64,000 nt of DNA. Source: an uncultured Pelagibacteraceae bacterium. Its GTDB lineage: Bacteria > Pseudomonadota > Alphaproteobacteria > Pelagibacterales > Pelagibacteraceae. The notes below the pieces were generated by a model that was not told the origin of the DNA, searched no databases, and saw nothing but the letters and a program-made list of their open reading frames with translations. The stretch is taken from NCBI GenBank assembly GCA_902601895.1, contig CACKOU010000005.1:6885-70884 (forward strand). The letters are read 5' to 3'. Of this stretch, positions 36,691-49,467 are shown one piece after another. Positions within the stretch are counted from its first letter, which is position 1. The number at the start of each line of letters is the position of its first letter. Both the position numbers and the translations under genes were made by a program.

Positions 36691-36767
36691 CGGGGTGTAG
36701 CGCAGCCTGGTAGCGCACTTGGTTTGGGACCAAGGGGCCGTAGGTTCAAATCCTACCACCCCGACCA
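36691..36767 (+). tRNA. tRNA-Pro(TGG)
   Basis: CGGGGTG...CACCCCG-A-CCA; anticodon arm CTTGG-TTTGGGA-CCAAG. Confidence 0.97.
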
Positions 36768-39030: not shown

Positions 39031-39105
39031 GGTCCCTTCGTCTATCGGTTAGGACACATGGTTTTCATCCATGAAAGAGGGGTTCGATTCCCCTAGGGAC
39101 CGCCA
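39031..39105 (+). tRNA. tRNA-Glu(TTC)
   Basis: GGTCCCT...AGGGACC-G-CCA; anticodon arm CATGG-TTTTCAT-CCATG. Confidence 0.97.
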
Positions 39106-40130: not shown

Positions 40131-40388
40131 ATGAACTATTACGTATATTTAATAATTTCAAAAAGAAATAATTCATACATTTCATACGTAGGTTACACAA
40201 ATAATATTAAAAAAAGAATAAATATGCATAATGAGTCTAAAGGAGCAAAATTTACAAGAGGAAATAAATGGGAATTAATATATAAAGAATCTTACAATAC
40301 AAAATCTAGTGCGATGACAGCTGAATATAAATTGAAGAAAAATTACCATTTAAGGAAAAAAATAAAAAAAAATTTTATTTATAAATGA
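40131..40388 (+). CDS. GIY-YIG nuclease family protein (UPF0213-like)
   Basis: YYVYL...YVGYT...R...HN..KGAKFT...E..LK. Confidence 0.9.
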   Translation: MNYYVYLIISKRNNSYISYVGYTNNIKKRINMHNESKGAKFTRGNKWELIYKESYNTKSSAMTAEYKLKKNYHLRKKIKKNFIYK

Positions 40389-42493
40389 AAATAGCAATTT
40401 TATTACCATATAAAGAAGACTATACATCAAAATATTCAGGAGCTGTATCAATTCATGTTTCTAATTTATATAAATACTCAAAATATAAGAATAATATTGA
40501 AATTTTTGGTAACACTAATTTTAAGAGTTATTTAACTAAAAACTTTAAAAATATTACAATTAAAGAAAATATTTTATCCAGTAGTAACAAAAAATATTTA
40601 AATAAATTTATTGAAGATCAAAAAAAAAATCTTTCAGATATTATTGAAATTCATAATAGACCAAATTATGTTGATACAATTAATAATAATCTAAATTCAA
40701 AAATCATACTTTATTTTCATAATAATCCATTGAGTATTGCTGGCTCGAAGTTAAAAAGTGAAAGATTGTTATTATTAGAAAAATGTGAATACATTTTTTT
40801 TAATAGTAAATGGACAAAAGATCAATTTTTTAAAGAAATTGAGGAAAATAGATTTAATGATAAATTTGGAATTTGTTATCAATCTACAAAAAAAATAAAA
40901 TTAAATATAGATAAAAAAAATAATATAATAACTTTTGTTGGTAAGCTTAATTCTGCAAAAGGATATGACATATTTGGTAATGCAATTATAAAAATACTAA
41001 ATAAATATAATAAATGGAAGTCTATTGTTGTTGGGGATGAACCTAGAGAAAAACATGTCTTCGAACACAAAAATTTAAAAATTTACAGTTTTAAAGATAA
41101 TGAATTTGTTTTAAATCTTTTAAAAAAAGCAAGTATTTCAGTTGCATGTTCTAGATGGGAAGAGCCATTTGGTAGGTCAAGTTTAGAAGCATGTAGTATG
41201 GGCTGTGCTACTATTATTACCAACAGAGGCGGTCTAATTGAAACTACAAAAAATCCAATTATTTTAAAAAATTTAAAATCTTCTGAATTATTCAATGTAA
41301 TTGAAAAATTGATCTTGAATAAAAAATTAAGACAAAAATATCAAAAACTTAATTATAAAAGTTTTTTCCTTACTCATGAGTATGTATCAAAAATTATTGA
41401 TAATATAAGAGAAAAAATAATTAATAAAAATTTAAAACTAATAAATATTAATAGAAATTCAAAATTAAAAATTATTCATATCACTAATTTTAATTTAAGA
41501 TATTTTGGCAGATTACAATATAACACAGGTATAAGAATAAATAATGGTCTAATAAGATTGGGCCACAATATTCTTAGTTTATCTGATAGAGATCTAATAA
41601 GTTATACTAAATCAATTAGAGATCCATCTGGTGCTAAATATTTGAATAAATTAATTTTAAATTCAATAAATAATTTCAAACCAGATATAATTATTTTAGG
41701 TCACGCAGATCGAGTGAATATAGATGTATTAAGTGAAGCCAAAATTAAAAATAAAAGTCTTAAAATATCACAATGGTTTTTAGACCCTCTGTCTAGAAAA
41801 GGGCCAGACTATGAAAAAAACAAGTTTAGGGTAATAGAAAAAAGTAAAATATGTGATACTTCCTTTGTAACTAGTGATCCAAATTCATTAGATTTTAAAA
41901 TAAATAATTCTTTTTTTATGCCCAATCCTTGTGATAATTCATTGGATTACCTAAGAAATTATGAGATGAAACCTGAATACGATATTTTTTATGCTATTAG
42001 TCATGGTGTTCATAGAGGAATATTAAGACCTGGCAAAACTGATGAAAGAGAGATATTTATAAAAAAACTTAAATCTAAATGTAAAGAAATTTCTTTTGAT
42101 ACATATGGTATGTTCGGTATACAACCTGTCTGGGGTGATGAATTTTTAACAAAACTTTCTAATTCTAAAATGGCTTTAAATTTAAGTAGAGGAAAGCCAG
42201 TAAAATATTATAGTAGTGATAGATTAGCTCAATTAATGGGAAATGGATTGTTAACTTTTATAAATAAAGATACTCAATATGGAGATTTTTTTAATAATAA
42301 AGAAATGATTTTTTATTCAAATCTTGATGACTTATCAGAAAAAATAAAAAAATACTCGAAGAATGATAGAGATTGGAGAAAGATTGCAAAAAATGGACAT
42401 AGAAAATATCAAAAACATTTTAATTCAACTAATGTGAGTAATTATATAATTGACAAAACTTTTGGAATAAAATCAAAATATTATTGGGAATGA
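40385..42493 (+). CDS. Two-domain glycosyltransferase (GT4 + CgeB/Glyco_trans_1_2-like)
   Basis: N-half FVGKL..AKG, EEPFGRSSLEA; C-half SKMALNLS...YSSDR...IAKNG. Confidence 0.85.
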   Translation: MKIAILLPYKEDYTSKYSGAVSIHVSNLYKYSKYKNNIEIFGNTNFKSYLTKNFKNITIKENILSSSNKKYLNKFIEDQKKNLSDIIEIHNRPNYVDTINNNLNSKIILYFHNNPLSIAGSKLKSERLLLLEKCEYIFFNSKWTKDQFFKEIEENRFNDKFGICYQSTKKIKLNIDKKNNIITFVGKLNSAKGYDIFGNAIIKILNKYNKWKSIVVGDEPREKHVFEHKNLKIYSFKDNEFVLNLLKKASISVACSRWEEPFGRSSLEACSMGCATIITNRGGLIETTKNPIILKNLKSSELFNVIEKLILNKKLRQKYQKLNYKSFFLTHEYVSKIIDNIREKIINKNLKLININRNSKLKIIHITNFNLRYFGRLQYNTGIRINNGLIRLGHNILSLSDRDLISYTKSIRDPSGAKYLNKLILNSINNFKPDIIILGHADRVNIDVLSEAKIKNKSLKISQWFLDPLSRKGPDYEKNKFRVIEKSKICDTSFVTSDPNSLDFKINNSFFMPNPCDNSLDYLRNYEMKPEYDIFYAISHGVHRGILRPGKTDEREIFIKKLKSKCKEISFDTYGMFGIQPVWGDEFLTKLSNSKMALNLSRGKPVKYYSSDRLAQLMGNGLLTFINKDTQYGDFFNNKEMIFYSNLDDLSEKIKKYSKNDRDWRKIAKNGHRKYQKHFNSTNVSNYIIDKTFGIKSKYYWE

Positions 42494-43533
42494 TTTCAAA
42501 AAAAAAAGCTTTAATTTTTGGTATAACTGGTCAAGATGGTTCTTATTTAGCAGAATTTTTATTAGAAAAAAATTACATAGTTCATGGTGTGAAGAGAAGA
42601 TCTTCAAGCGAGAATACAAACCGAATAGATCATATTTTCGATAGTATAAATTTTAAAAATAAAAATTTTTTTTTACATTATGGCGATGTTGCAGATGGTA
42701 CAAATATACTGAATATTATAAATAAAGTTAAACCAGATGAAATTTATAATTTAGCTGCTCAAAGTCATGTCAGAGTATCTTTTGATGTTCCTGAGTATAC
42801 AGCAGATACTACTGCTATTGGAACACTCAGAATTTTAGAATCTATAAGAGCTTTGAATTTTTTTAAAACAAAATTTTATCAAGCTTCTAGTTCTGAAATG
42901 TTTGGTAAACAAAAAAGTTCAAAACCACAAAATGAATTTACGAAATTTAATCCTATGTCAATTTACGGTGTATCAAAAGTTTTTTCATATCATACTACAA
43001 TTCTATATAGAGAGGCATACGGCTTTTTTGCCTGTAATGGTATTCTATTTAATCATGAGTCTCCTAGAAGAGGTCCAACTTTCGTTACAAAAAAAATTGT
43101 TCAAGGTCTTGTAAGAATAAAAAAAGGTTTGCAAAAAGAATTAATACTTGGGAATTTATACTCTGTAAGAGATTGGGGTCACGCAAAAGACTACGTGGAA
43201 AGTATGTGGAAAATATTACAATATAAGAAACCTGATGACTGGGTTGTTTCAACCAATAAAAATATAACTGTTAAACAATTTGTTAATTTATGTGCAAAAG
43301 AACTAGGATTTAAGTTAGTTTGGAAAAATAAAGGAATTAAAGAAATAGGTTTTGATCAAATTTCAAAAAAAATAATTATTAAATTAGATAAGAAATATTT
43401 TAGACCAGCTGAAGTTGATTATTTAAAAGGTGATTATGCGAAAGTTAGAAAAATTCTTAAATGGAAACCTAAATATTCTATAAAAAATTTAATTTCAGAT
43501 ATGATTAAACACGAAATTAAGTTGTATGAATAA
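42490..43533 (+). CDS. gmd: GDP-mannose 4,6-dehydratase
   Basis: GITGQDGSYL, YNLAAQSHV, QASSSE, YGVSK, FNHESPRRG, RDWGHAKDY. Confidence 0.96.
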   Translation: MISKKKALIFGITGQDGSYLAEFLLEKNYIVHGVKRRSSSENTNRIDHIFDSINFKNKNFFLHYGDVADGTNILNIINKVKPDEIYNLAAQSHVRVSFDVPEYTADTTAIGTLRILESIRALNFFKTKFYQASSSEMFGKQKSSKPQNEFTKFNPMSIYGVSKVFSYHTTILYREAYGFFACNGILFNHESPRRGPTFVTKKIVQGLVRIKKGLQKELILGNLYSVRDWGHAKDYVESMWKILQYKKPDDWVVSTNKNITVKQFVNLCAKELGFKLVWKNKGIKEIGFDQISKKIIIKLDKKYFRPAEVDYLKGDYAKVRKILKWKPKYSIKNLISDMIKHEIKLYE

Positions 43534-44719
43534 TTTCTCATATCCTTTAGTTGAAAATCCTTTTTCAGATGATGATATAAAAAAAGCAAAAAGTGTATTA
43601 AATTCTAAACAATTAACACTTTCAACGAATACATTTAATTTTGAAAAAAAATTTAAAAACAAAATTAAGAGCAACTTTTCTTTAATGGTCAACTCAGGAT
43701 CATCAGCAAATCTTTTAGCATTTCAATGTTTAATTAATCCATATCGAAAAAAAAGATTAGAAAAAAATTCAGAAATCATTATTCCATCTTTATGCTGGTC
43801 GACATCATTATGGCCAATTATACAATCAAATTTAAAACCAATATTTGTAGATATTAATAAAGACACTCTTAATATTGACATTGATGATTTAGAAAAAAAA
43901 ATTACAAAGAAAACTAAAGCAATAATGTTAATACATGTACTTGGAAATTGTTGTGATATGGACAGATTAATGCAAATTAAAAAAAAACATAATTTAATTC
44001 TTATAGAGGATACTTGTGAATCTTTAGGAACAAAATTCAATAATAAATATTTAGGAACTTTTGGAGAATTTTCATCTTTTTCCTTTTATACCTCGCATCA
44101 AATTTCAGCAGGTGAGGGTGGTATGATTTGTTGTAAAGATAAAAACGATTATGAAATAATCAAATCACTAAGATCACACGGTTGGTCAAGAGGCACATCA
44201 TTTGAAAATAAATATAAAAATGATAAATATTTAAATAAGAAATTTATTTTTTTTAATTCTGGATTCAATTTGAGGCCCACAGAAATATCAGCGGCTATAG
44301 GATACAATCAGTTTAAGAGACTAGAAAAAATGAAAAATAGTAGAAATTCTAATCGTAAAAAGATTATTAATGCTTTTAAAGATAACAAAGTTTTAAGAGA
44401 TACCATAAGTTTTTTTCAACCAAGTAAAAAAGTAAAACCTTCATGGTTTGGTCTCCCTTTAAGGTTTTATACAAAACATAATTTAAATAAAATCTTAATT
44501 AAACTTGAAAAAATGGGTGTAGAAACTAGACCAATTATAAGTGGAAATTTTACCAGACAGCCAGCAGCTAAAGTTTATAAATTATTTAAAAAGAATAATT
44601 TTAGAAATACAGATGAAATATATAACTCAAGTTTTTTTATAGGTTTGCCTACACCTAAATTAAAGAAAAAAAAGATTGAGAAGTTAGTAAAGATATTCGA
44701 AAAGATTTTTAAAAATTGA
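43526..44719 (+). CDS. DegT/DnrJ-family PLP enzyme, ColD-like GDP-4-keto-6-deoxymannose 3-dehydratase
   Basis: VNSGSSANL, EDTCE, SFYTSHQISAGEGG (His at the Schiff-base Lys position), RSHGWSR, GVETRPI..GNF. Confidence 0.75.
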   Translation: MNNFSYPLVENPFSDDDIKKAKSVLNSKQLTLSTNTFNFEKKFKNKIKSNFSLMVNSGSSANLLAFQCLINPYRKKRLEKNSEIIIPSLCWSTSLWPIIQSNLKPIFVDINKDTLNIDIDDLEKKITKKTKAIMLIHVLGNCCDMDRLMQIKKKHNLILIEDTCESLGTKFNNKYLGTFGEFSSFSFYTSHQISAGEGGMICCKDKNDYEIIKSLRSHGWSRGTSFENKYKNDKYLNKKFIFFNSGFNLRPTEISAAIGYNQFKRLEKMKNSRNSNRKKIINAFKDNKVLRDTISFFQPSKKVKPSWFGLPLRFYTKHNLNKILIKLEKMGVETRPIISGNFTRQPAAKVYKLFKKNNFRNTDEIYNSSFFIGLPTPKLKKKKIEKLVKIFEKIFKN

Positions 44720-45708
44720 TGAAAATATGTTTTATTGATAGAACAGATTTCAAATATTCGTATGAAGATAAATTAGAAAGCAAATTAAGAGGTGCTGAAA
44801 CTATATTAATTAATTTGTCCGAGAATCTACATAAATTAGATAATGAAGTATTTGTTTTTAATAATTCATCTATTCATTATTCAAATAACAATTACACTTG
44901 GACCGACATAACAAATTTAAAAAAATATAATTATGAATATGACGTAGCTATTTCAAATGGAGATATCAACTTGCTCAACACAGTTAATGCAAAAAAAAAA
45001 TTTGCCATATCATATAGTATTCAAACTATTGAAAAATTTATAAGAAAAAAACAAATATTTTCCTATTTGAAACATAAACCTAAAATTATTCTTATTGGTG
45101 AATATCATAAAATTAAAAGATCTTTTTTAACTAGAATTTTTGGATATGATTTTTTAGACGTATCTGTGGATGATATTTTCAATAAAACAACTTTGGTTGA
45201 GAAAATTGATAATAACAAAGCTATTTTTACCTCCAGGAGTGACAGAAATATGGATTTATTGATTAATATTTGGAAAAATAAAATATTTAAAAGTAATGAT
45301 GCATATAAATTATTTGTAACGCCAAACCAAAATTATAATAAAATAAATAAATACAATATTTTTTTTAGATCAATGAAAAATCAGAACGATTTAATTAATG
45401 ATGTTCAAACATCTAGGGTCATGCTAGTTCCAGGTCATAAAGCTGAATTGTTTTGTCTTGCAGCAGAAGAGGCTAGAGAGCTATGCGTCCCAATTGTAAC
45501 TTTGGGTATTGGATCTTTAGTGGAAAGAGTTGAACATGGCAAAACTGGCTACATTGCAAAAAATATTGATGAATTTGCACACTATACTCTTAAAATTTTT
45601 AATAATAATAAAATTTGGGAAGAATTAAGAAGTAATTTATTGAAATTGAGAGGAAAACTAAGTTGGGAAAAATCAAGTAAAAAATTTTTAAGTACATTAA
45701 AAAAATAA
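44719..45708 (+). CDS. GT4-like glycosyltransferase
   Basis: LRGAET; ELFCLAAEEA (E-x7-E); GSLVERVEHGKTG. Confidence 0.8.
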   Translation: MKICFIDRTDFKYSYEDKLESKLRGAETILINLSENLHKLDNEVFVFNNSSIHYSNNNYTWTDITNLKKYNYEYDVAISNGDINLLNTVNAKKKFAISYSIQTIEKFIRKKQIFSYLKHKPKIILIGEYHKIKRSFLTRIFGYDFLDVSVDDIFNKTTLVEKIDNNKAIFTSRSDRNMDLLINIWKNKIFKSNDAYKLFVTPNQNYNKINKYNIFFRSMKNQNDLINDVQTSRVMLVPGHKAELFCLAAEEARELCVPIVTLGIGSLVERVEHGKTGYIAKNIDEFAHYTLKIFNNNKIWEELRSNLLKLRGKLSWEKSSKKFLSTLKK

Positions 45709-45712
45709 ATTT

Positions 45713-46720
45713 ATGAAAAAAGCGATAATAACGGGTATACTTGGACAAGATGGTGTATATCTTGCTAGATTGCTATTAAAAAAAAAATATAAAGTTTTTG
45801 GCCTTTATAAAGATAAAAATTCAAAAAATAATAAATTCTTACAAAAGAAAATTAAATATATTAAAGTTGACATAAGAGATAAAAACTCTTTAGTTAAGAT
45901 TTTAAAAAAAATAAGACCTAATGAAATTTACAATCTAGCTGCATCATCTTCAGTTAGTAAATCTTTTGATAGTCCAATTGACTCAATATTAACAAATTGT
46001 GTTGGTTATTTAAATATTTTAGAAGCAGTTAAAGAAAATTCAAAAAAAACTAAAATATTCCAAGCATCTAGCTCAGAAATGTTTGCTAATTCAAAGTATA
46101 ATTTAATTAATGAAAATACAAATTTTTCCCCAATTAATCCTTATGGTGTAAGCAAAGTAGCGGCACATTCTTTAACAAAGTTCTATAGAGAAGCATATAA
46201 TCTAAAATGTTCAACTGGAATTTTATTTAATCACGAGTCTATTCTTAGAACTGAAGAATTCGTGTCAAAAAAAATTGTAAAGAAATTATATGATATATCG
46301 ATTAAAAAAAATGGAATATTATTTTTAGGTAATATTTATTCCAAGAGAGATTTTGGATATGCGCCTGAATATGTGCAGGCAATGTGGAAAATTTTACAAC
46401 AAAAAAAAAGTGATGATTTTATTATCGCAAGTGGTAAATATTATTCTATAAAATATTTCGTAAATATTGTTTGCAAAGAATTTAAAATTCCTTTTACTTG
46501 GAAAGGTACTGGTATAAACGAACATTGTATTAATAAAGAAAATAAAAAAATTTTCGTTAAAATTGATAAAAAACTTTATAGACCCTTAGACGTCAAACCA
46601 ATTAAAGGTAATACAAATAAAGCTAATAAAGTATTAAAATGGAAATCTACTACAAATTTTAAAGATCTTATTAAAATACTTTGTAAAGATGTAATAAATG
46701 AAAAAAATTTTAATCCTTAA
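45713..46720 (+). CDS. Second GDP-mannose 4,6-dehydratase-like SDR
   Basis: GILGQDG, YNLAASSSV, QASSSEMF, YGVSK, FNHES, RDFGYAPEY. Confidence 0.88.
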   Translation: MKKAIITGILGQDGVYLARLLLKKKYKVFGLYKDKNSKNNKFLQKKIKYIKVDIRDKNSLVKILKKIRPNEIYNLAASSSVSKSFDSPIDSILTNCVGYLNILEAVKENSKKTKIFQASSSEMFANSKYNLINENTNFSPINPYGVSKVAAHSLTKFYREAYNLKCSTGILFNHESILRTEEFVSKKIVKKLYDISIKKNGILFLGNIYSKRDFGYAPEYVQAMWKILQQKKSDDFIIASGKYYSIKYFVNIVCKEFKIPFTWKGTGINEHCINKENKKIFVKIDKKLYRPLDVKPIKGNTNKANKVLKWKSTTNFKDLIKILCKDVINEKNFNP

Positions 46721-47696
46721 AAATGATAGAGTAGGTGATTTCTTTAACTCTATAAAAGGAATTAATTCAATAATTAATGAGCATAAAAATTACGAAACTA
46801 CTATTGTTTTATCGAATTATTCAAAAGAATTGTCTTTTTTATTTGATTTTAAAAATATTAAGATTGAAATTTTAAATTTTGATTTGAATTATAGAGATAA
46901 ATTATATATTTCAAAAAAAGTTATATTCGAAAAATTTGAAAAAGTATTCATTTTAGCTCCTAAAAATTTTTATTTTTATTTACCTTTAATATCTAAATCA
47001 AAATTTTTTGCTATTTGCATAAAAGAAAAAAATAAAATCAGACCATTTAAATTTTTAATAAAAAAACTTCATTTATACGCTATTAATGATAGATCTTTTA
47101 AAAAATTTGGAGAAAGTATTGAAAATTTGATCGAGAAAATTTCAAATAAAAATAATATTAATTATCCTAACATATTAAATAATAATCCTAAAATATCTAA
47201 TTTGTTAAATTATAACCTTATACATTTAAAAAAATTTGTTCATGTTCACTATAAACATAGCCTTTTTAAAAAAAATGGATGGAAATTGAACGATTTTGTT
47301 GATTTGCTTCTTAAAATATCGAGTAAAGGTTATCAAGTTATCTTAACTTCAGATTTTTGTAATTCCTATTATAATGATTTTTTTTTAAAAAAATTTTCTT
47401 TTATAAACTTTGAAACTAATTCTAAATTTGTTGATGATAGTAGTATTATTTATCTCCATAATATAACAATTAGCGATTTATTTAAAGTTATTGATTTATC
47501 AAATCAAGTTTTAGCACCACACGGTACAATGACGGTAATGGCTAGTTATCTTAAAAAAAAAGTTATAGATATATATGATATAACTGTAAGAATTAATTCC
47601 TTCAGAGAATACAAACCAACGAATAAAAATTATAGTTTTTTAATTTTAAAAAATAATACAGAAAAAATAAAAAAAAAGATTATTAATTTTTTATAA
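46698..47696 (+). CDS. GT9-like (LPS heptosyltransferase-fold) glycosyltransferase
   Basis: N-terminal MKKILILKNDRVGDF; C-terminal DL..VIDLS.QVLAPHG....ASYL. Confidence 0.65.
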   Translation: MKKILILKNDRVGDFFNSIKGINSIINEHKNYETTIVLSNYSKELSFLFDFKNIKIEILNFDLNYRDKLYISKKVIFEKFEKVFILAPKNFYFYLPLISKSKFFAICIKEKNKIRPFKFLIKKLHLYAINDRSFKKFGESIENLIEKISNKNNINYPNILNNNPKISNLLNYNLIHLKKFVHVHYKHSLFKKNGWKLNDFVDLLLKISSKGYQVILTSDFCNSYYNDFFLKKFSFINFETNSKFVDDSSIIYLHNITISDLFKVIDLSNQVLAPHGTMTVMASYLKKKVIDIYDITVRINSFREYKPTNKNYSFLILKNNTEKIKKKIINFL

Positions 47697-48644
47697 TTTA
47701 ATTTTATTAAGGGCATTATTTTTAAATATATTAGCTTCCCTAATATATCTTCTAACCATTTGTGTTGTTTTATGACCTGTCATAGCCATTATGCTTCGCT
47801 CATCAGCGCCTGAATCAGCAGCTGATGTTGCAAAACCCGACCTTAAACTATGACCTGCAAAATTTTTGTTTTCAATACCCGCTAACTTTAAATATTCTTT
47901 CATTAATAAAACTACAGATTGGTCAGTTAATCTTTTATCTGTTAATGATAAACCTTTAGAAAATCTTCTAAAAATTGCTCCAGACTTAATTTTAGAAATT
48001 TCTAACCATTTTTTTAGATTTGTAACAGGACAGTAAATTTCATTATCGAAGTAGGGTAGTCCTTTAGTCATTCCTTCTCCGAATTGGTCAGTTTTTGATC
48101 TTTTAACAGTTATTTTTAGACCCTCAGGAACAAATTCTAAATCTTCATGATCAATTGAAATGATCTCGGACCTTCTAAAGCCACCTGCAAAGCCAATTAA
48201 GATTATTGATTTGTCTCTAAGTTTTTTTATTTCCTGAGTTTTTTGTTCATTAATTACATTAATAATTGATTTTAAATGATTGATTAATATAGGTTTTTTA
48301 CCTTTCTGAATACTTCCTTTGACCCTTCTTATTCCCATTAAATTTTCAACAATGATTGGATGTTTTGTGTCTAGATAATGACCTTTAAACCTATGAACCA
48401 TGCTTATTGATACTAATCTTCGTCTTAAAGTACTGATTTTTGAGTTTTTAGATAGATGGGTAAGGTATAAGGAAACTATTTTTGGCTCTGTTGGTAAAGA
48501 ATTTAATCCATGCTTTGCACAAAAAGCTCCAAAGTCTTTAAAATCAGATTTATAAGCTCTTAAGGTATTATTTGCCTTTGAACTTTTAAGGTTATTTAAA
48601 GTTTCCTCATTAAGCGATTTTAGGTTTGTTGTCAGCTCATTCAT
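47691..48644 (-). CDS. Cre-like tyrosine site-specific recombinase
   Basis: N-terminal SAM-like domain (NTLRAYKSDF...STLRRRLVSIS..H); complete catalytic set R (GFRRSE), K (RSKTD), HxxR (HSLR), H (TGH), Y (RRY). Confidence 0.93.
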   Translation of the reverse strand: MNELTTNLKSLNEETLNNLKSSKANNTLRAYKSDFKDFGAFCAKHGLNSLPTEPKIVSLYLTHLSKNSKISTLRRRLVSISMVHRFKGHYLDTKHPIIVENLMGIRRVKGSIQKGKKPILINHLKSIINVINEQKTQEIKKLRDKSIILIGFAGGFRRSEIISIDHEDLEFVPEGLKITVKRSKTDQFGEGMTKGLPYFDNEIYCPVTNLKKWLEISKIKSGAIFRRFSKGLSLTDKRLTDQSVVLLMKEYLKLAGIENKNFAGHSLRSGFATSAADSGADERSIMAMTGHKTTQMVRRYIREANIFKNNALNKIKL

Positions 48645-48647
48645 ATA

Positions 48648-48682
48648 ATTACTATTGATAACAATTAATTATCATTAGTAAT
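48648..48682. repeat. loxP-like inverted repeat; candidate recombination site of the adjacent recombinase
   Basis: ATTACTATTGATAA-CAATTAA-TTATCATTAGTAAT: 14-bp arms (13/14 complementary), 7-bp asymmetric spacer, 3 bp from the recombinase ATG. Confidence 0.75.
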
Positions 48683-48706
48683 ATATCAAGTGATTTTAAA
48701 TGTCAA
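48678..48706 (-). promoter_or_regulatory. Putative sigma70 promoter of the recombinase
   Basis: Minus strand TTGACA (48706-48701)-N17-TATTAC (48683-48678); the -10 overlaps one arm of the inverted repeat. Confidence 0.6.
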
Positions 48707-48727: not shown

Positions 48728-48907
48728 ATGACTATAGATGGTGAAATTCCTACAAGCTATTTTTTAATAATATCTATAGGTTTAACTATACTGAGTTATT
48801 TGGTTTATAAAAAAAATGGGAAATCTTTAGAAGTATACTTCTTATCTTTTTTAACAATAATTTTCTATTTATCCTATTTTATTCTTATTTTTGTTGGACC
48901 CAGATAG
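48728..48907 (+). CDS. Small two-TM hypothetical protein (59 aa; not in ORF track)
   Basis: Translated by hand: MTIDGEIPTSYFLIISIGLTILSYLVYKKNGKSLEVYFLSFLTIIFYLSYFILIFVGPR*. Confidence 0.55.
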   Translation: MTIDGEIPTSYFLIISIGLTILSYLVYKKNGKSLEVYFLSFLTIIFYLSYFILIFVGPR

Positions 48908-48995
48908 TTTATTAACGCTATCCACAGCTGTTAAAAACCCTTAATTATCAACTATAAAGTGATACTAATATAATTTGCACTGTGATAATTTCATA

Positions 48996-49185
48996 AATGA
49001 ATTAAGAGGCAACTCTTAACTGACCATCTGGGGAAAAATCGAGAGATTCAAGCCCAGAGGGCAGAAAACCACGCAGAGTAGCGCTAAAATTGCGGGGTGG
49101 AAGGCATGGCGGTAGCGCATACAACGACGTGCCAAAAAACTACTGATCTTTGTACCTGAAAAGGTGCAGAGATACAGGGTTTTTT
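48996..49185 (+). ncRNA. Structured ncRNA, probably an IMES-type marine RNA
   Basis: GC-rich island in AT-rich DNA; five stems, three GNRA tetraloops (GCAA, GAGA, GAAA), loop-loop complementarity GCGCTA/TAGCGC, terminal hairpin followed by a T-tract. Family assignment is from recall and unverified; ends approximate. Confidence 0.8.
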
Positions 49186-49191
49186 CTTTAT

Positions 49192-49467
49192 ATGATCCTT
49201 AAAGGTACAAAATTTCAAATTAAAGTCTGGAAATACTTAAAAACAATTAAAAAAGGTAGTGTTTTAACCTATTCTGACGTCGCAAAGGGTATTAATAAAC
49301 CTCGAGCTGTTAGATCTGTAGCTAATGCTATTGGAAAAAACCCATATGCTCCTAAAATACCTTGCCATAGAGTAATCAGGTCTGATGGATCTCTAGGAGG
49401 ATATTCTGGAAAAGGTGGTATAAAAACCAAGAAAAAACTGCTCAAATCCGAAGGAATCTTGCTCTAA
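49192..49467 (+). CDS. ogt: Methylated-DNA--protein-cysteine methyltransferase (minimal MGMT)
   Basis: TYSDVA, RSVANA...NP....PCHRV, GGYSG; start ATG 49192. Confidence 0.9.
   Translation: MILKGTKFQIKVWKYLKTIKKGSVLTYSDVAKGINKPRAVRSVANAIGKNPYAPKIPCHRVIRSDGSLGGYSGKGGIKTKKKLLKSEGILL

What the first reader, a model, noticed from the sequence alone, without database searches (positions are those of the whole stretch)
47691..48706. Cre/lox-like single-recombinase module at a terminus-like position: candidate XerCD-independent chromosome dimer resolution system
Seen: an intact Cre-like tyrosine recombinase (R-K-HxxR-H-Y) has, 3 bp upstream of its ATG, a 35-bp site ATTACTATTGATAA-CAATTAA-TTATCATTAGTAAT with near-perfect 14-bp arms and an asymmetric 7-bp spacer. 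I found one full copy by eye and no phage, plasmid or transposon genes nearby. The dominant gene orientation converges on this locus. Established: this arm-spacer-arm geometry is that of loxP, rox and dif. Symmetric arms fit a homotetrameric recombinase. Streptococcal XerS/difSL is a single recombinase whose site lies directly upstream of its gene at the terminus, and P1 Cre/loxP resolves plasmid dimers. My recollection (unverified) is that canonical dif/XerCD was not found in Pelagibacter. Inference: a domesticated Cre-like enzyme plus one lox-like site may serve as the SAR11 dif system. The pair is also a candidate new orthogonal recombinase/target for genome engineering.
Basis: partly seen in the sequence, partly recalled or inferred. 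Interest (0 to 1): 0.9.

Follow-up and report, generated by a model that had tools for sequence, protein, structure and literature searches.

The report
Cre/lox-type chromosome dimer resolution in SAR11
SAR11 bacteria, reported to lack the usual XerCD/dif machinery for separating fused sister chromosomes, carry one Cre-like recombinase gene next to its own single lox-like target where replication ends. This most likely does that job, and SAR11 phages carry copies of the target.

Summary
Observation confirmed; interpretation supported by computation only.

- **Gene and site.** Window 47691-48644 (-) encodes a 317-aa tyrosine recombinase with invariant R157, K184, H265, R268, H291 and Y300. Three bp upstream lies a 14-7-14 site (48648-48682), unique in the genome.
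- **Family.** The family profile (125.7 bits) and the AF2 model (TM about 0.8) match Cre best, above XerD, XerA and XerH.
- **Distribution.** All 45 single-contig genomes listed for the family have the gene. The 17-bp site core occurs once in 242 of 280 genomes and never twice. XerC/XerD-grade genes were found only in the one sister-family genome examined.
- **Position.** In five closed genomes of four genera the GC-skew turning point lies 1.0-2.4 kb from the site. In G013 the replichores are 670 and 673 kb.
- **Co-variation.** Site arms change with the protein in two types, concordant in 71 of 71 loci.
- **Host factors.** FtsK with a gamma domain, and RecA, are present.
- **Phages.** Pelagiphages without an integrase (Greip, HTVC024P) and about 20 viral contigs carry the site, often both arm types in tandem.

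Best reading (p about 0.8): a Cre/lox-type single-recombinase dif system replaced XerCD in this family.

This scan reached the same reading earlier on other SAR11 genomes. I found no paper describing it.

The parts
47691..48644 (-). Cre-like tyrosine recombinase gene (317 aa, P0001)
   Evidence: ORF and translation; Pfam PF00589 and PF02899; invariant catalytic residues. The family profile scores Cre at 125.7 bits against 76.7 for XerD. AF2 model pLDDT 95.9, with the top 31 Foldseek PDB hits all Cre or Tre.
48648..48682 (.). 35-bp lox/dif-like site. In gene sense: ATTACTAATGATAA-TTAATTG-TTATCAATAGTAAT. Arms 48648-48661 and 48669-48682, asymmetric spacer 48662-48668.
   Evidence: Inverted repeat 13/14; unique in the window and the genome; conserved upstream of all 71 complete orthologue loci. 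The 17-bp core is single-copy in 242 of 280 family genomes.
48680..48685 (-). Putative -10 hexamer (TATATT, preceded by TGA). It overlaps the outer end of the promoter-proximal arm. An alternative -10, TATTAC at 48678-48683, gives a 17-nt spacer.
   Evidence: Position conserved in the alignment of upstream regions. The consensus scan did not call it. Inference.
48701..48706 (-). Putative -35 hexamer TTGACA
   Evidence: TTGACA or TTGACT lies at a fixed distance (17-19 nt) from the site in all loci with a site that were examined, and in the MarineAlpha5 relative. Promoter function is inferred, not shown.

Best explanation
This is a single-recombinase chromosome dimer resolution module of the Cre/lox type. 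One Cre-family tyrosine recombinase binds as a dimer to the two near-identical arms of the single site at the replication terminus. When homologous recombination fuses the two sister chromosomes, the dimer carries two directly repeated copies. FtsK, which keeps its gamma domain, would bring them together at the septum. A tetramer of the recombinase would then exchange strands across the asymmetric 7-bp spacer and restore two monomers.

Because the site lies between the gene's promoter and its ATG, the bound protein probably also represses its own gene. In this family the module takes the place of XerCD/dif.

Shown here: anatomy, uniqueness, terminus position, phyletic pattern, co-variation of protein and site, and the Cre-like fold. 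Inferred: binding, strand exchange, involvement of FtsK, autoregulation.
For: - **Terminus position.** In closed genome G013 the whole-genome cumulative GC-skew maximum is at 615,774 and the site at 617,601-617,635. The skew minimum gives replichores of 669,979 and 673,223 bp. In G041, G201, G052 and G113 (genera g5, g7, g6, g1) the skew changes sign at the site. The local maximum within +/-100 kb lies 1.0-2.4 kb away.
- **Distance from dnaA.** dnaA lies 42-46% of the chromosome from the site in all five genomes.
- **Gene strands.** Gene orientation converges on the locus in the window's own contig.
- **Uniqueness.** There is one site in G000 and one in G013. The 17-bp core occurs exactly once in 242 of 280 family genomes, never twice, and in none of 20 sister-family genomes. 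A reversed-pattern control gave 0 everywhere.
- **Core gene.** 254 of 280 genomes at least 85% complete have a strong orthologue. These include all 45 single-contig genomes listed.
- **No XerCD in the family.** It is the only PF00589 gene in G000, G013, G004 and about 45 of 70 near-complete genomes. The extra ones are sporadic integrases of about 345 aa scoring at most 94 bits.
- **XerCD in the sister family.** G025 has XerC- and XerD-like genes at 314-330 bits on NCBIfam.
- **Co-variation.** There are two site types. Type A has 14-bp arms (ATTACTAAYGATAA / TTATCAATAGTAAT). Type B has about 10-bp arms (TTTCCGATAA / TTATCGGAAA). Both arms change together, and the type tracks a 12-aa indel in the protein: 49 of 49 type A loci have the longer form (spacing measured in 46, full protein length 317-319 aa in all) and 22 of 22 type B loci lack it.
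- **Cre-like protein.** Profile 125.7 bits to Cre over both domains; Foldseek TM 0.77-0.84.
- **Host factors.** FtsK with a gamma domain and RecA are present.
- **Phage copies.** Pelagibacter phages Greip and HTVC024P have no PF00589 gene. They carry the arms in non-coding DNA beside the terminase gene. About 20 IMG/VR phage contigs carry full sites with the host spacer, often a type A site and a type B site in tandem.
- **Literature.** P. ubique was reported to have no dif/Xer system (PMC2731167).
Against: - No biochemical or genetic result exists; every functional step is inferred.
- In the window's own contig the skew forms a plateau from about 55 to 66 kb. Its maximum is 10 kb from the site, and only 19 kb of right flank is available.
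- In four of the five closed genomes only +/-100 kb was analysed. The genomes are related and syntenic, so they are not independent.
- No clear KOPS-like polar motif was found; the best 7-mer was GAGTAGG, 54 leading against 8 lagging.
- In two closed genomes the gene looks damaged: G118 is split by stop codons and G089 is truncated. This is either assembly error or dispensability.
- The site overlaps the promoter, so conservation and co-variation could partly reflect autoregulation alone.
- The locus abuts a variable glycosylation gene block.
- The closest relatives outside SAR11 are annotated integrases on plasmids and beside defence islands.
Confidence: 0.8

Rival explanations
1. The palindrome is only an operator. 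The recombinase, or a derivative that has lost recombination, represses its own promoter. Any real recombination target lies elsewhere or does not exist.
For: The site lies between a conserved TTGACA box and the ATG and overlaps the likely -10. Co-variation of protein and arms is also expected of a repressor and its operator.
Against: - All catalytic residues are invariant down to 52% identity.
- The asymmetric 7-bp spacer is conserved, which an operator does not need.
- The terminus position is conserved across four genera.
- Phages without an integrase carry complete sites far from any such gene.
- No other target-like site exists in the genome.
Confidence: 0.06
2. It is a host-encoded integrase with an attB. 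Its main role is to insert and excise mobile DNA, either the neighbouring glycosylation gene block or phages. It does not resolve dimers.
For: The gene abuts a variable block of glycosyltransferase and sugar-nucleotide genes, and assemblies often break there. Homologues are common on plasmids (1,525 records) and beside a BREX island. Phages carry matching sites.
Against: - No genome of 280 has a second copy of the core, which an integrated element would leave.
- No half-site pair flanks the block.
- The gene is universal and single-copy, whereas the block varies.
- The exact terminus position and the absence of XerCD-grade genes in the family are not explained by this reading.
- Phage use of a host dif system is known for XerCD (IMEX elements) and is compatible with the main reading.
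Confidence: 0.08
3. It is a relic of an integrated plasmid multimer-resolution module with no present cellular role.
For: The family is mainly plasmid-borne outside SAR11. In one plasmid the gene sits next to a toxin-antitoxin pair.
Against: It is retained intact in genomes of 1.0-1.5 Mb across six genera, with conserved catalytic residues and a conserved site. It keeps a fixed position at the terminus.
Confidence: 0.03

Closest known systems
Cre/loxP of phage P1, including loxP engineered in place of dif in E. coli (the engineered case is from my memory: Leslie and Sherratt 1995)
   Same: Best profile and fold match. One recombinase; two 13-14-bp inverted arms around an asymmetric spacer; a role in resolving replicon dimers. 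The type A proteins keep the hairpin that aligns with Cre residues about 239-257.
   Different: About 18% identity to Cre. The spacer between the arms is 7 bp, against 8 bp in loxP. It is chromosomal, a core gene of the family, and located at the terminus. The site sits inside the gene's own promoter/leader. His rather than Trp occupies the fifth catalytic position (H291).
XerS/difSL of streptococci and lactococci
   Same: A single recombinase with its site directly upstream of its gene at the terminus, replacing XerCD (as described in PMC2731167).
   Different: A different recombinase family: the NCBIfam XerS model scores 48.6 bits against a cut-off of 267. The arms here are near-symmetric and the protein is shorter.
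XerH/difH of Helicobacter and Campylobacter
   Same: A single-recombinase dif system with palindromic arms.
   Different: Weak similarity: profile 39.2 bits and TM at most 0.63, against 125.7 bits and 0.8 for Cre.
XerCD/dif
   Same: Same inferred cellular task, same chromosomal position, and FtsK with a gamma domain present.
   Different: One protein instead of two paralogues. XerC and XerD model scores are 69-79 bits against cut-offs of about 330. The site is 14-7-14 rather than 11-6-11.
Mobile elements that exploit the host Xer system (IMEX, for example CTX phage and gokushoviruses; from my memory and PMC9865509)
   Same: Phages without an integrase carry copies of the host's terminus site.
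   Different: No integrated copy flanked by two sites was seen in 280 genomes. The phage sites could instead serve circularisation or multimer resolution, as loxP does for P1. Many phage contigs carry two tandem sites of different arm type.
Plasmid-borne Cre-like 'site-specific integrases' (1,525 PLSDB records)
   Same: The closest sequence relatives outside SAR11, at 37-46% identity over the full length.
   Different: They are on plasmids or islands. In the three loci I looked at (Pusillimonas-type MAG contig, Alicyclobacillus and Skermanella plasmids) no comparable site lies next to the gene. Their function is unknown to me.

Membership tests
Cre-like tyrosine recombinases | Catalytic R-K-H-R-(H/W)-Y set | tested here: met
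   R157, K184, H265, R268, H291 and Y300 are invariant in 21 orthologues. R157, K184, H265, R268 and Y300 are invariant in 121 family members, where H291 is at least 90% conserved.
Cre-like tyrosine recombinases | Both domains resemble Cre more than other solved tyrosine recombinases | tested here: met
   Profile against PDB: Cre 125.7 bits over residues 27-308; XerD 76.7; XerA 73.1 and 44.6; XerH 39.2. The top 31 Foldseek hits are all Cre or Tre, TM 0.73-0.84.
Cre-like tyrosine recombinases | Target made of two inverted arms of about 13 bp around an asymmetric 6-8-bp spacer | tested here: met
   The site is 14-7-14, and this geometry is conserved in all 71 complete orthologue loci.
Cre-like tyrosine recombinases | Recombines its site as a homotetramer without accessory factors | not testable with these tools
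   Needs biochemistry.
XerC/XerD | Score above the curated cut-offs of the XerC and XerD models, and two paralogues | tested here: not met
   79.3 bits against a cut-off of 329.6 (XerD) and 69.1 against 335.15 (XerC). There is a single gene per genome.
XerS/difSL | Score above the XerS model cut-off | tested here: not met
   48.6 bits against a cut-off of 267.
XerH/difH | Closest solved relative is XerH | tested here: not met
   XerH scores 39.2 bits and TM at most 0.63, well below Cre.
Chromosome dimer resolution system (functional class) | Single site at the replication terminus | tested here: met
   The skew maximum lies 1.0-2.4 kb from the site in five closed genomes. The site is single-copy.
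Chromosome dimer resolution system (functional class) | Vertical, near-universal presence, complementary to XerCD | tested here: met
   254 of 280 family genomes and 45 of 45 single-contig genomes have the gene. XerCD-grade genes were found in the one sister-family genome examined, G025, and in none of 70 near-complete genomes of the family.
Chromosome dimer resolution system (functional class) | RecA, and FtsK with a gamma domain, present | tested here: met
Chromosome dimer resolution system (functional class) | Loss gives unresolved dimers or filamentation; recombination at the site depends on cell division | not testable with these tools
   Needs genetics.
IMEX-like exploitation by phages | Element without its own integrase carries a copy of the host site | tested here: met
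   Greip and HTVC024P have no PF00589 match at E up to 0.1, and both carry both arms. IMG/VR contigs carry full sites.
IMEX-like exploitation by phages | Integrated copies at the host site, flanked by two sites | tested here: not met
   None of the 280 family genomes has two copies of the 17-bp core.

The most novel reading that the evidence does not exclude
A natural Cre/lox-type module has replaced XerCD/dif as the chromosome dimer resolution system of the whole Pelagibacteraceae-like family. It exists in two co-evolved specificity types (protein hairpin plus arm sequence) that are distributed across genera independently of taxonomy. Pelagiphages without an integrase carry tandem type A and type B sites so that they can use whichever host enzyme they meet, for integration, circularisation or multimer resolution.
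Probability: 0.5. Interest if true: 0.9.

Novelty: new variant of a known kind. Interest (0 to 1): 0.85.

Why it matters
- **A gap in SAR11 biology.** SAR11 is widely regarded as the most abundant bacterial group in the ocean (my knowledge) and keeps RecA. It has stood in the literature as a free-living bacterium without a dif/Xer system (PMC2731167), read there as loss through genome streamlining. If this reading holds, the function was kept but handed to a recombinase of a different family, apparently drawn from the plasmid pool. This would be a third independent single-recombinase replacement of XerCD and the first of the Cre type.
- **Annotation.** The gene is currently labelled 'XerC/XerD' by automatic pipelines, as the 2026 preprint seen appears to do.
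- **Locating the terminus.** The site gives a precise sequence marker for the replication terminus in SAR11 genomes and metagenome bins.
- **Phage-host link.** Host-like sites in pelagiphages that have no integrase are a possible marker of how these phages use the host.
- **Tools.** Two natural recombinase/site pairs with different arm specificity and one common core are candidate orthogonal genome-engineering tools. They are also a natural experiment in how recombinase specificity evolves.

Tried and rejected
- **KOPS-like motifs.** A k-mer polarity scan in G013 gave only weak candidates; the best was GAGTAGG at 54:8. This is not used as evidence.
- **Promoter scan.** The consensus scan did not call the conserved TTGACA promoter, because the spacer or -10 falls outside its rules. 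It found no more promoter-like sites than shuffles do.
- **Second site in the window.** A second GATAA-N7-TTATC at window 23986 has no extended arms and is taken as chance.
- **Isolated half-sites.** Single half-sites elsewhere in G000 have no partner.
- **RNA hairpin.** The leader folds as an RNA hairpin (-14.3 kcal/mol, z -3.9). Any palindrome does this, so it is not counted.
- **Sites next to outgroup genes.** Inverted-repeat searches next to two plasmid homologues found nothing. The Pusillimonas-type homologue beside BREX has no comparable site.
- **IMES-2 linkage.** The IMES-2 RNA is close to the site only in near relatives, not in distant genera. It was therefore dropped as a part of the module.
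- **Inversion switch.** Rejected, because there is only one site per genome.
- **Literature.** Six searches found no description of this system. Kono et al. 2011 does not mention Pelagibacter in its main text.
- **Not done.** No tree with Cre, Dre, XerS, XerH and TnpS was built, because I had no tool-given sequences for most of them. Profile and fold scores were used instead.
- **Not used.** Expression data, complex prediction and the metagenome scan.
Full report
**1. The observation**

The minus-strand ORF 47691-48644 encodes a 317-aa protein, P0001. It matches Pfam Phage_integrase (75 bits) and the SAM-like N-terminal domain.

Three nucleotides upstream of its ATG lies a 35-bp site at 48648-48682. 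It has two 14-bp arms, 13/14 complementary, around a 7-bp asymmetric spacer. In gene sense it reads ATTACTAATGATAA-TTAATTG-TTATCAATAGTAAT.
- It is unique in the window; none of 100 shuffles gave a match.
- It is unique in the draft genome, even allowing 8 mismatches of 35. The genome, G000, has 42 contigs, 1.155 Mb, and is 84% complete.

The 20 neighbouring ORFs scanned fall into two groups, with no phage, plasmid or transposon genes:
- On the gene's 3' side, glycosyltransferases and sugar-nucleotide enzymes.
- On the promoter side, housekeeping genes: an MGMT-type DNA-binding protein, transporters, hom, a semialdehyde dehydrogenase, rpsI and rplM.

ORF strands converge on the locus: 37 plus / 16 minus to the left and 5 plus / 15 minus to the right.

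**2. What the protein is**

It reaches no curated Xer model:

| NCBIfam model | score (bits) | cut-off (bits) |
|---|---|---|
| XerD | 79 | 330 |
| XerC | 69 | 335 |
| XerS | 49 | 267 |

A library of 1.84 billion representatives holds 2,697 relatives at E below 1e-30. They are about 320 aa long and 36-48% identical.

I built a profile from 21 SAR11 orthologues plus 100 of these relatives and searched it against PDB sequences:

| Solved protein | score (bits) |
|---|---|
| Cre (E 2e-35, both domains) | 125.7 |
| XerD | 76.7 |
| archaeal XerA (two entries) | 73.1 and 44.6 |
| XerH | 39.2 |

An AlphaFold model from that alignment has pLDDT 95.9. Its top 31 Foldseek hits in the PDB are all Cre or the Cre-derived Tre, with TM 0.73-0.84. 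XerH reaches at most 0.63.

R157, K184, H265, R268, H291 and Y300 are invariant among the SAR11 orthologues. 'Cre-like' is therefore a tested statement, not only a resemblance.

**3. Distribution**

The protein was searched in 300 genomes of the order that are at least 85% complete.
- 254 of 280 genomes of the window's family (six genera) have a strong orthologue. These include all 45 single-contig genomes listed.
- The 20 genomes of the sister family give only weak cross-hits (E 1e-6 to 1e-8).
- Draft genomes without the gene have no other candidate either. Many hits lie at contig ends, so these gaps look like assembly breaks beside the variable block.

The gene is the only PF00589 match in G000, in closed G013 and in G004.

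Among 70 near-complete genomes of the family, about 45 have exactly this one tyrosine recombinase. The others add sporadic integrases of about 345 aa that score at most 94 bits.

Sister-family genome G025, in contrast, has two genes scoring 144-154 bits on Pfam. NCBIfam reads them as XerD-like (316 bits; subfamily model 330, above its cut-off) and XerC-like (314 bits). The single Cre-like gene and the XerCD pair are therefore phyletically complementary in the genomes searched.

**4. Position**

I assembled closed genome G013 (1,343,202 bp) from 68 fetched stretches.
- Its cumulative GC skew peaks at 615,774. The site is at 617,601-617,635.
- Taking the skew minimum (1,290,841) as the origin, the site splits the chromosome into 669,979 and 673,223 bp.

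For four further closed genomes I fetched +/-100 kb around the site. In each, the 20-kb skew values are nearly all positive before the site and all negative after it.

| Genome (genus) | local skew maximum | site core |
|---|---|---|
| G041 (g5) | 771,546 | 773,634 |
| G201 (g7) | 1,015,742 | 1,013,363 |
| G052 (g6) | 493,446 | 492,376 |
| G113 (g1) | 152,768 | 153,795 |

dnaA lies 42-46% of the chromosome away from the site in all five genomes.

In the window's own contig the skew rises up to the locus and then forms a plateau. The maximum is 10 kb further on and the right flank is short, so this is consistent but not sharp.

The five genomes are related and syntenic, so they count as a conserved position rather than five independent trials.

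**5. The site across the family**

All 71 loci with a complete orthologue have the site 0-10 nt before the ATG. One further locus, L020, has it farther upstream. The core GATAA-TTAATKG-TTATC is almost invariant.

The 17-bp core occurs exactly once in 242 of 280 family genomes and never twice. It occurs in none of the sister family, and a reversed-pattern control found nothing anywhere.

The arms come in two types:
- Type A: ATTACTAAYGATAA / TTATCAATAGTAAT.
- Type B: TTTCCGATAA / TTATCGGAAA.

Both arms differ between the types, so the palindrome is kept.

The type tracks the protein:
- All 49 type A loci encode the longer form, with a 12-aa segment at residues about 226-237. The diagnostic spacing was measured in 46 of them; the other three have the same 317-aa length.
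- All 22 type B loci lack it.
- The segment aligns with Cre residues about 239-257, the stretch beginning FCRVRKNG.
- From memory, this Cre hairpin contacts the arm DNA. That would fit the shorter conserved arm of type B, but it is inference.

Both types occur within genera g1, g5 and g8 (and, judging by protein identity, g9). Some g5 proteins are 78-79% identical to the window's, while some g1 proteins are only 64% identical. The module type therefore does not follow genus boundaries. The number of independent switches is small and was not counted on a tree.

**6. Promoter**

A TTGACA or TTGACT hexamer sits at a fixed distance upstream of the site in all loci that have the site. It is followed by a TATATT-like hexamer that abuts or overlaps the outer end of the promoter-proximal arm.

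The consensus scanner did not call this promoter, so it stays an inference.

If it is real, the site covers the transcription start and the whole leader. The bound recombinase would then repress its own gene.

**7. Relatives outside SAR11**

- *MarineAlpha5.* A homologue 44% identical, in a marine alphaproteobacterial bin (MarineAlpha5_Bin12), lies among housekeeping genes. It has the same layout: TTGACT, 17 nt, TATATT, then ATTACTTCCGATAA-CATACAA-TTATCGGAAGTAAT, then ATG. The arms are related and the spacer is different.
- *Other relatives.* These are annotated integrases. One sits beside a BREX defence island. 1,525 plasmid records carry one at 37-46% identity, one of them next to a toxin-antitoxin pair. 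Only ten phage records have weak hits.
- *Origin.* A plasmid origin for the SAR11 gene is plausible but was not tested by phylogeny.

**8.

- *Greip.* Pelagibacter phage Greip (34.9 kb, host HTCC1062) has ATTACTAATGATAA-TAAAAG-TTATCACTAGTAAA in a 500-bp non-coding region upstream of its terminase gene. It has no PF00589 match at E up to 0.1.
- *HTVC024P.* This phage has a similar site with a 7-bp spacer beside its terminase gene, and likewise no integrase.
- *Viral contigs.* A scan of IMG/VR for the exact 17-bp core gave 33 contigs. By my rough estimate, that many matches to a 17-mer in so large a collection could arise by chance. About 20 of them, however, also have the SAR11-type extended arms, which chance does not explain.
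- *What they encode.* Terminase, portal, head-tail adaptor, major head and DNA methyltransferase genes, with no homologue of P0001 in the fetched stretches.
- *Tandem sites.* Several carry two adjacent sites, one with type A arms and one with type B arms, for example L211, L224, L220 and L236.

This independently supports two points: the arms are recognised by a host protein, and the two types are functional classes.

What the phages use the sites for is open. The candidates are integration, circularisation or multimer resolution. No genome of 280 shows a second core copy that an integrated phage would leave.

**9. Host factors**

FtsK in G000 has the 4TM, alpha, motor and gamma domains; the gamma domain scores 90.8 bits. 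RecA is present.

**10. Literature**

Carnoy and Roten (2009, PMC2731167) state that P. ubique has no dif/Xer system and read this as loss through streamlining.

A 2026 preprint mentions 'XerC and XerD' in Arctic Pelagibacterales, apparently as annotation labels.

Six full-text searches found no description of a Cre-type terminus system in SAR11.

Earlier notes of this scan reached the same reading on other SAR11 genomes. They are not independent evidence.

**11. Verdict**

The anatomy, uniqueness, terminus position, phyletic complementarity with XerCD, co-variation of protein and site, and copies in phages all point to a Cre/lox-type single-recombinase dif system.

It works like XerS/difSL and XerH/difH but is not a member of either family. 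By sequence and fold it belongs with Cre.

Recombination, FtsK dependence and autoregulation remain to be shown.

Noticed in passing
window 48995-49135 (+): A full-length IMES-2 RNA motif (Rfam RF02035, 163 bits against a gathering score of 54.7) lies about 310 bp from the site and 15 nt before the MGMT-like ORF. It is also found next to the module in two near relatives (L018, L013). It was not found within 1.5 kb in eleven more distant loci or in L099.
   Followed up: partly
window 49150-49467 (+) and 48728-48907 (+): A 105-aa protein consisting only of the MGMT DNA-binding domain (PF01035, 108 bits). A 59-aa ORF with no family match lies between the recombinase promoter and the IMES-2 RNA.
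   Followed up: no
window 40385-47696 (+): A block of glycosyltransferases, two GDP-mannose-dehydratase-like enzymes, a DegT aminotransferase and one ORF with no Pfam family ends inside the recombinase's stop codon region. Two tRNA genes (36691-36764 and 39031-39102) lie to its left. It looks like a variable surface-glycan slot, and assemblies of relatives often break here.
   Followed up: partly
L155 (G118:C1:595396-596348) and L151 (G089:C1:571337-572134): In two single-contig genomes the recombinase gene is split by stop codons (G118) or truncated at about residue 278 (G089), while the site is intact. This is either assembly error or real loss.
   Followed up: no
L197 6385-6432 (MarineAlpha5_Bin12 relative): The same promoter-site-ATG layout with a 44% identical recombinase in another marine alphaproteobacterial bin. 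It has perfect 14-bp arms and a different 7-bp spacer (CATACAA). All three contigs carrying it end 3-6 kb upstream of the gene.
   Followed up: partly
L211, L235, L224, L220, L236, L217, L213, L207 (IMG/VR phage contigs): Tandem pairs of sites in phage DNA. One has type A arms and one type B arms. One of the two usually has the host spacer TTAATTG and the other a different spacer of 6-8 bp.
   Followed up: partly
G072, G073, G083, G048, G061, G063, G082 and others: About a third of the near-complete genomes of the family carry one or more additional tyrosine integrases of 340-357 aa (84-94 bits on PF00589) at varying positions. These are probably prophage or island integrases.
   Followed up: no
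G013 whole genome: dnaA (about 1,199,000) lies about 92 kb from the GC-skew minimum (1,290,841). dnaA is therefore not at the skew-defined origin in this genome.
   Followed up: no
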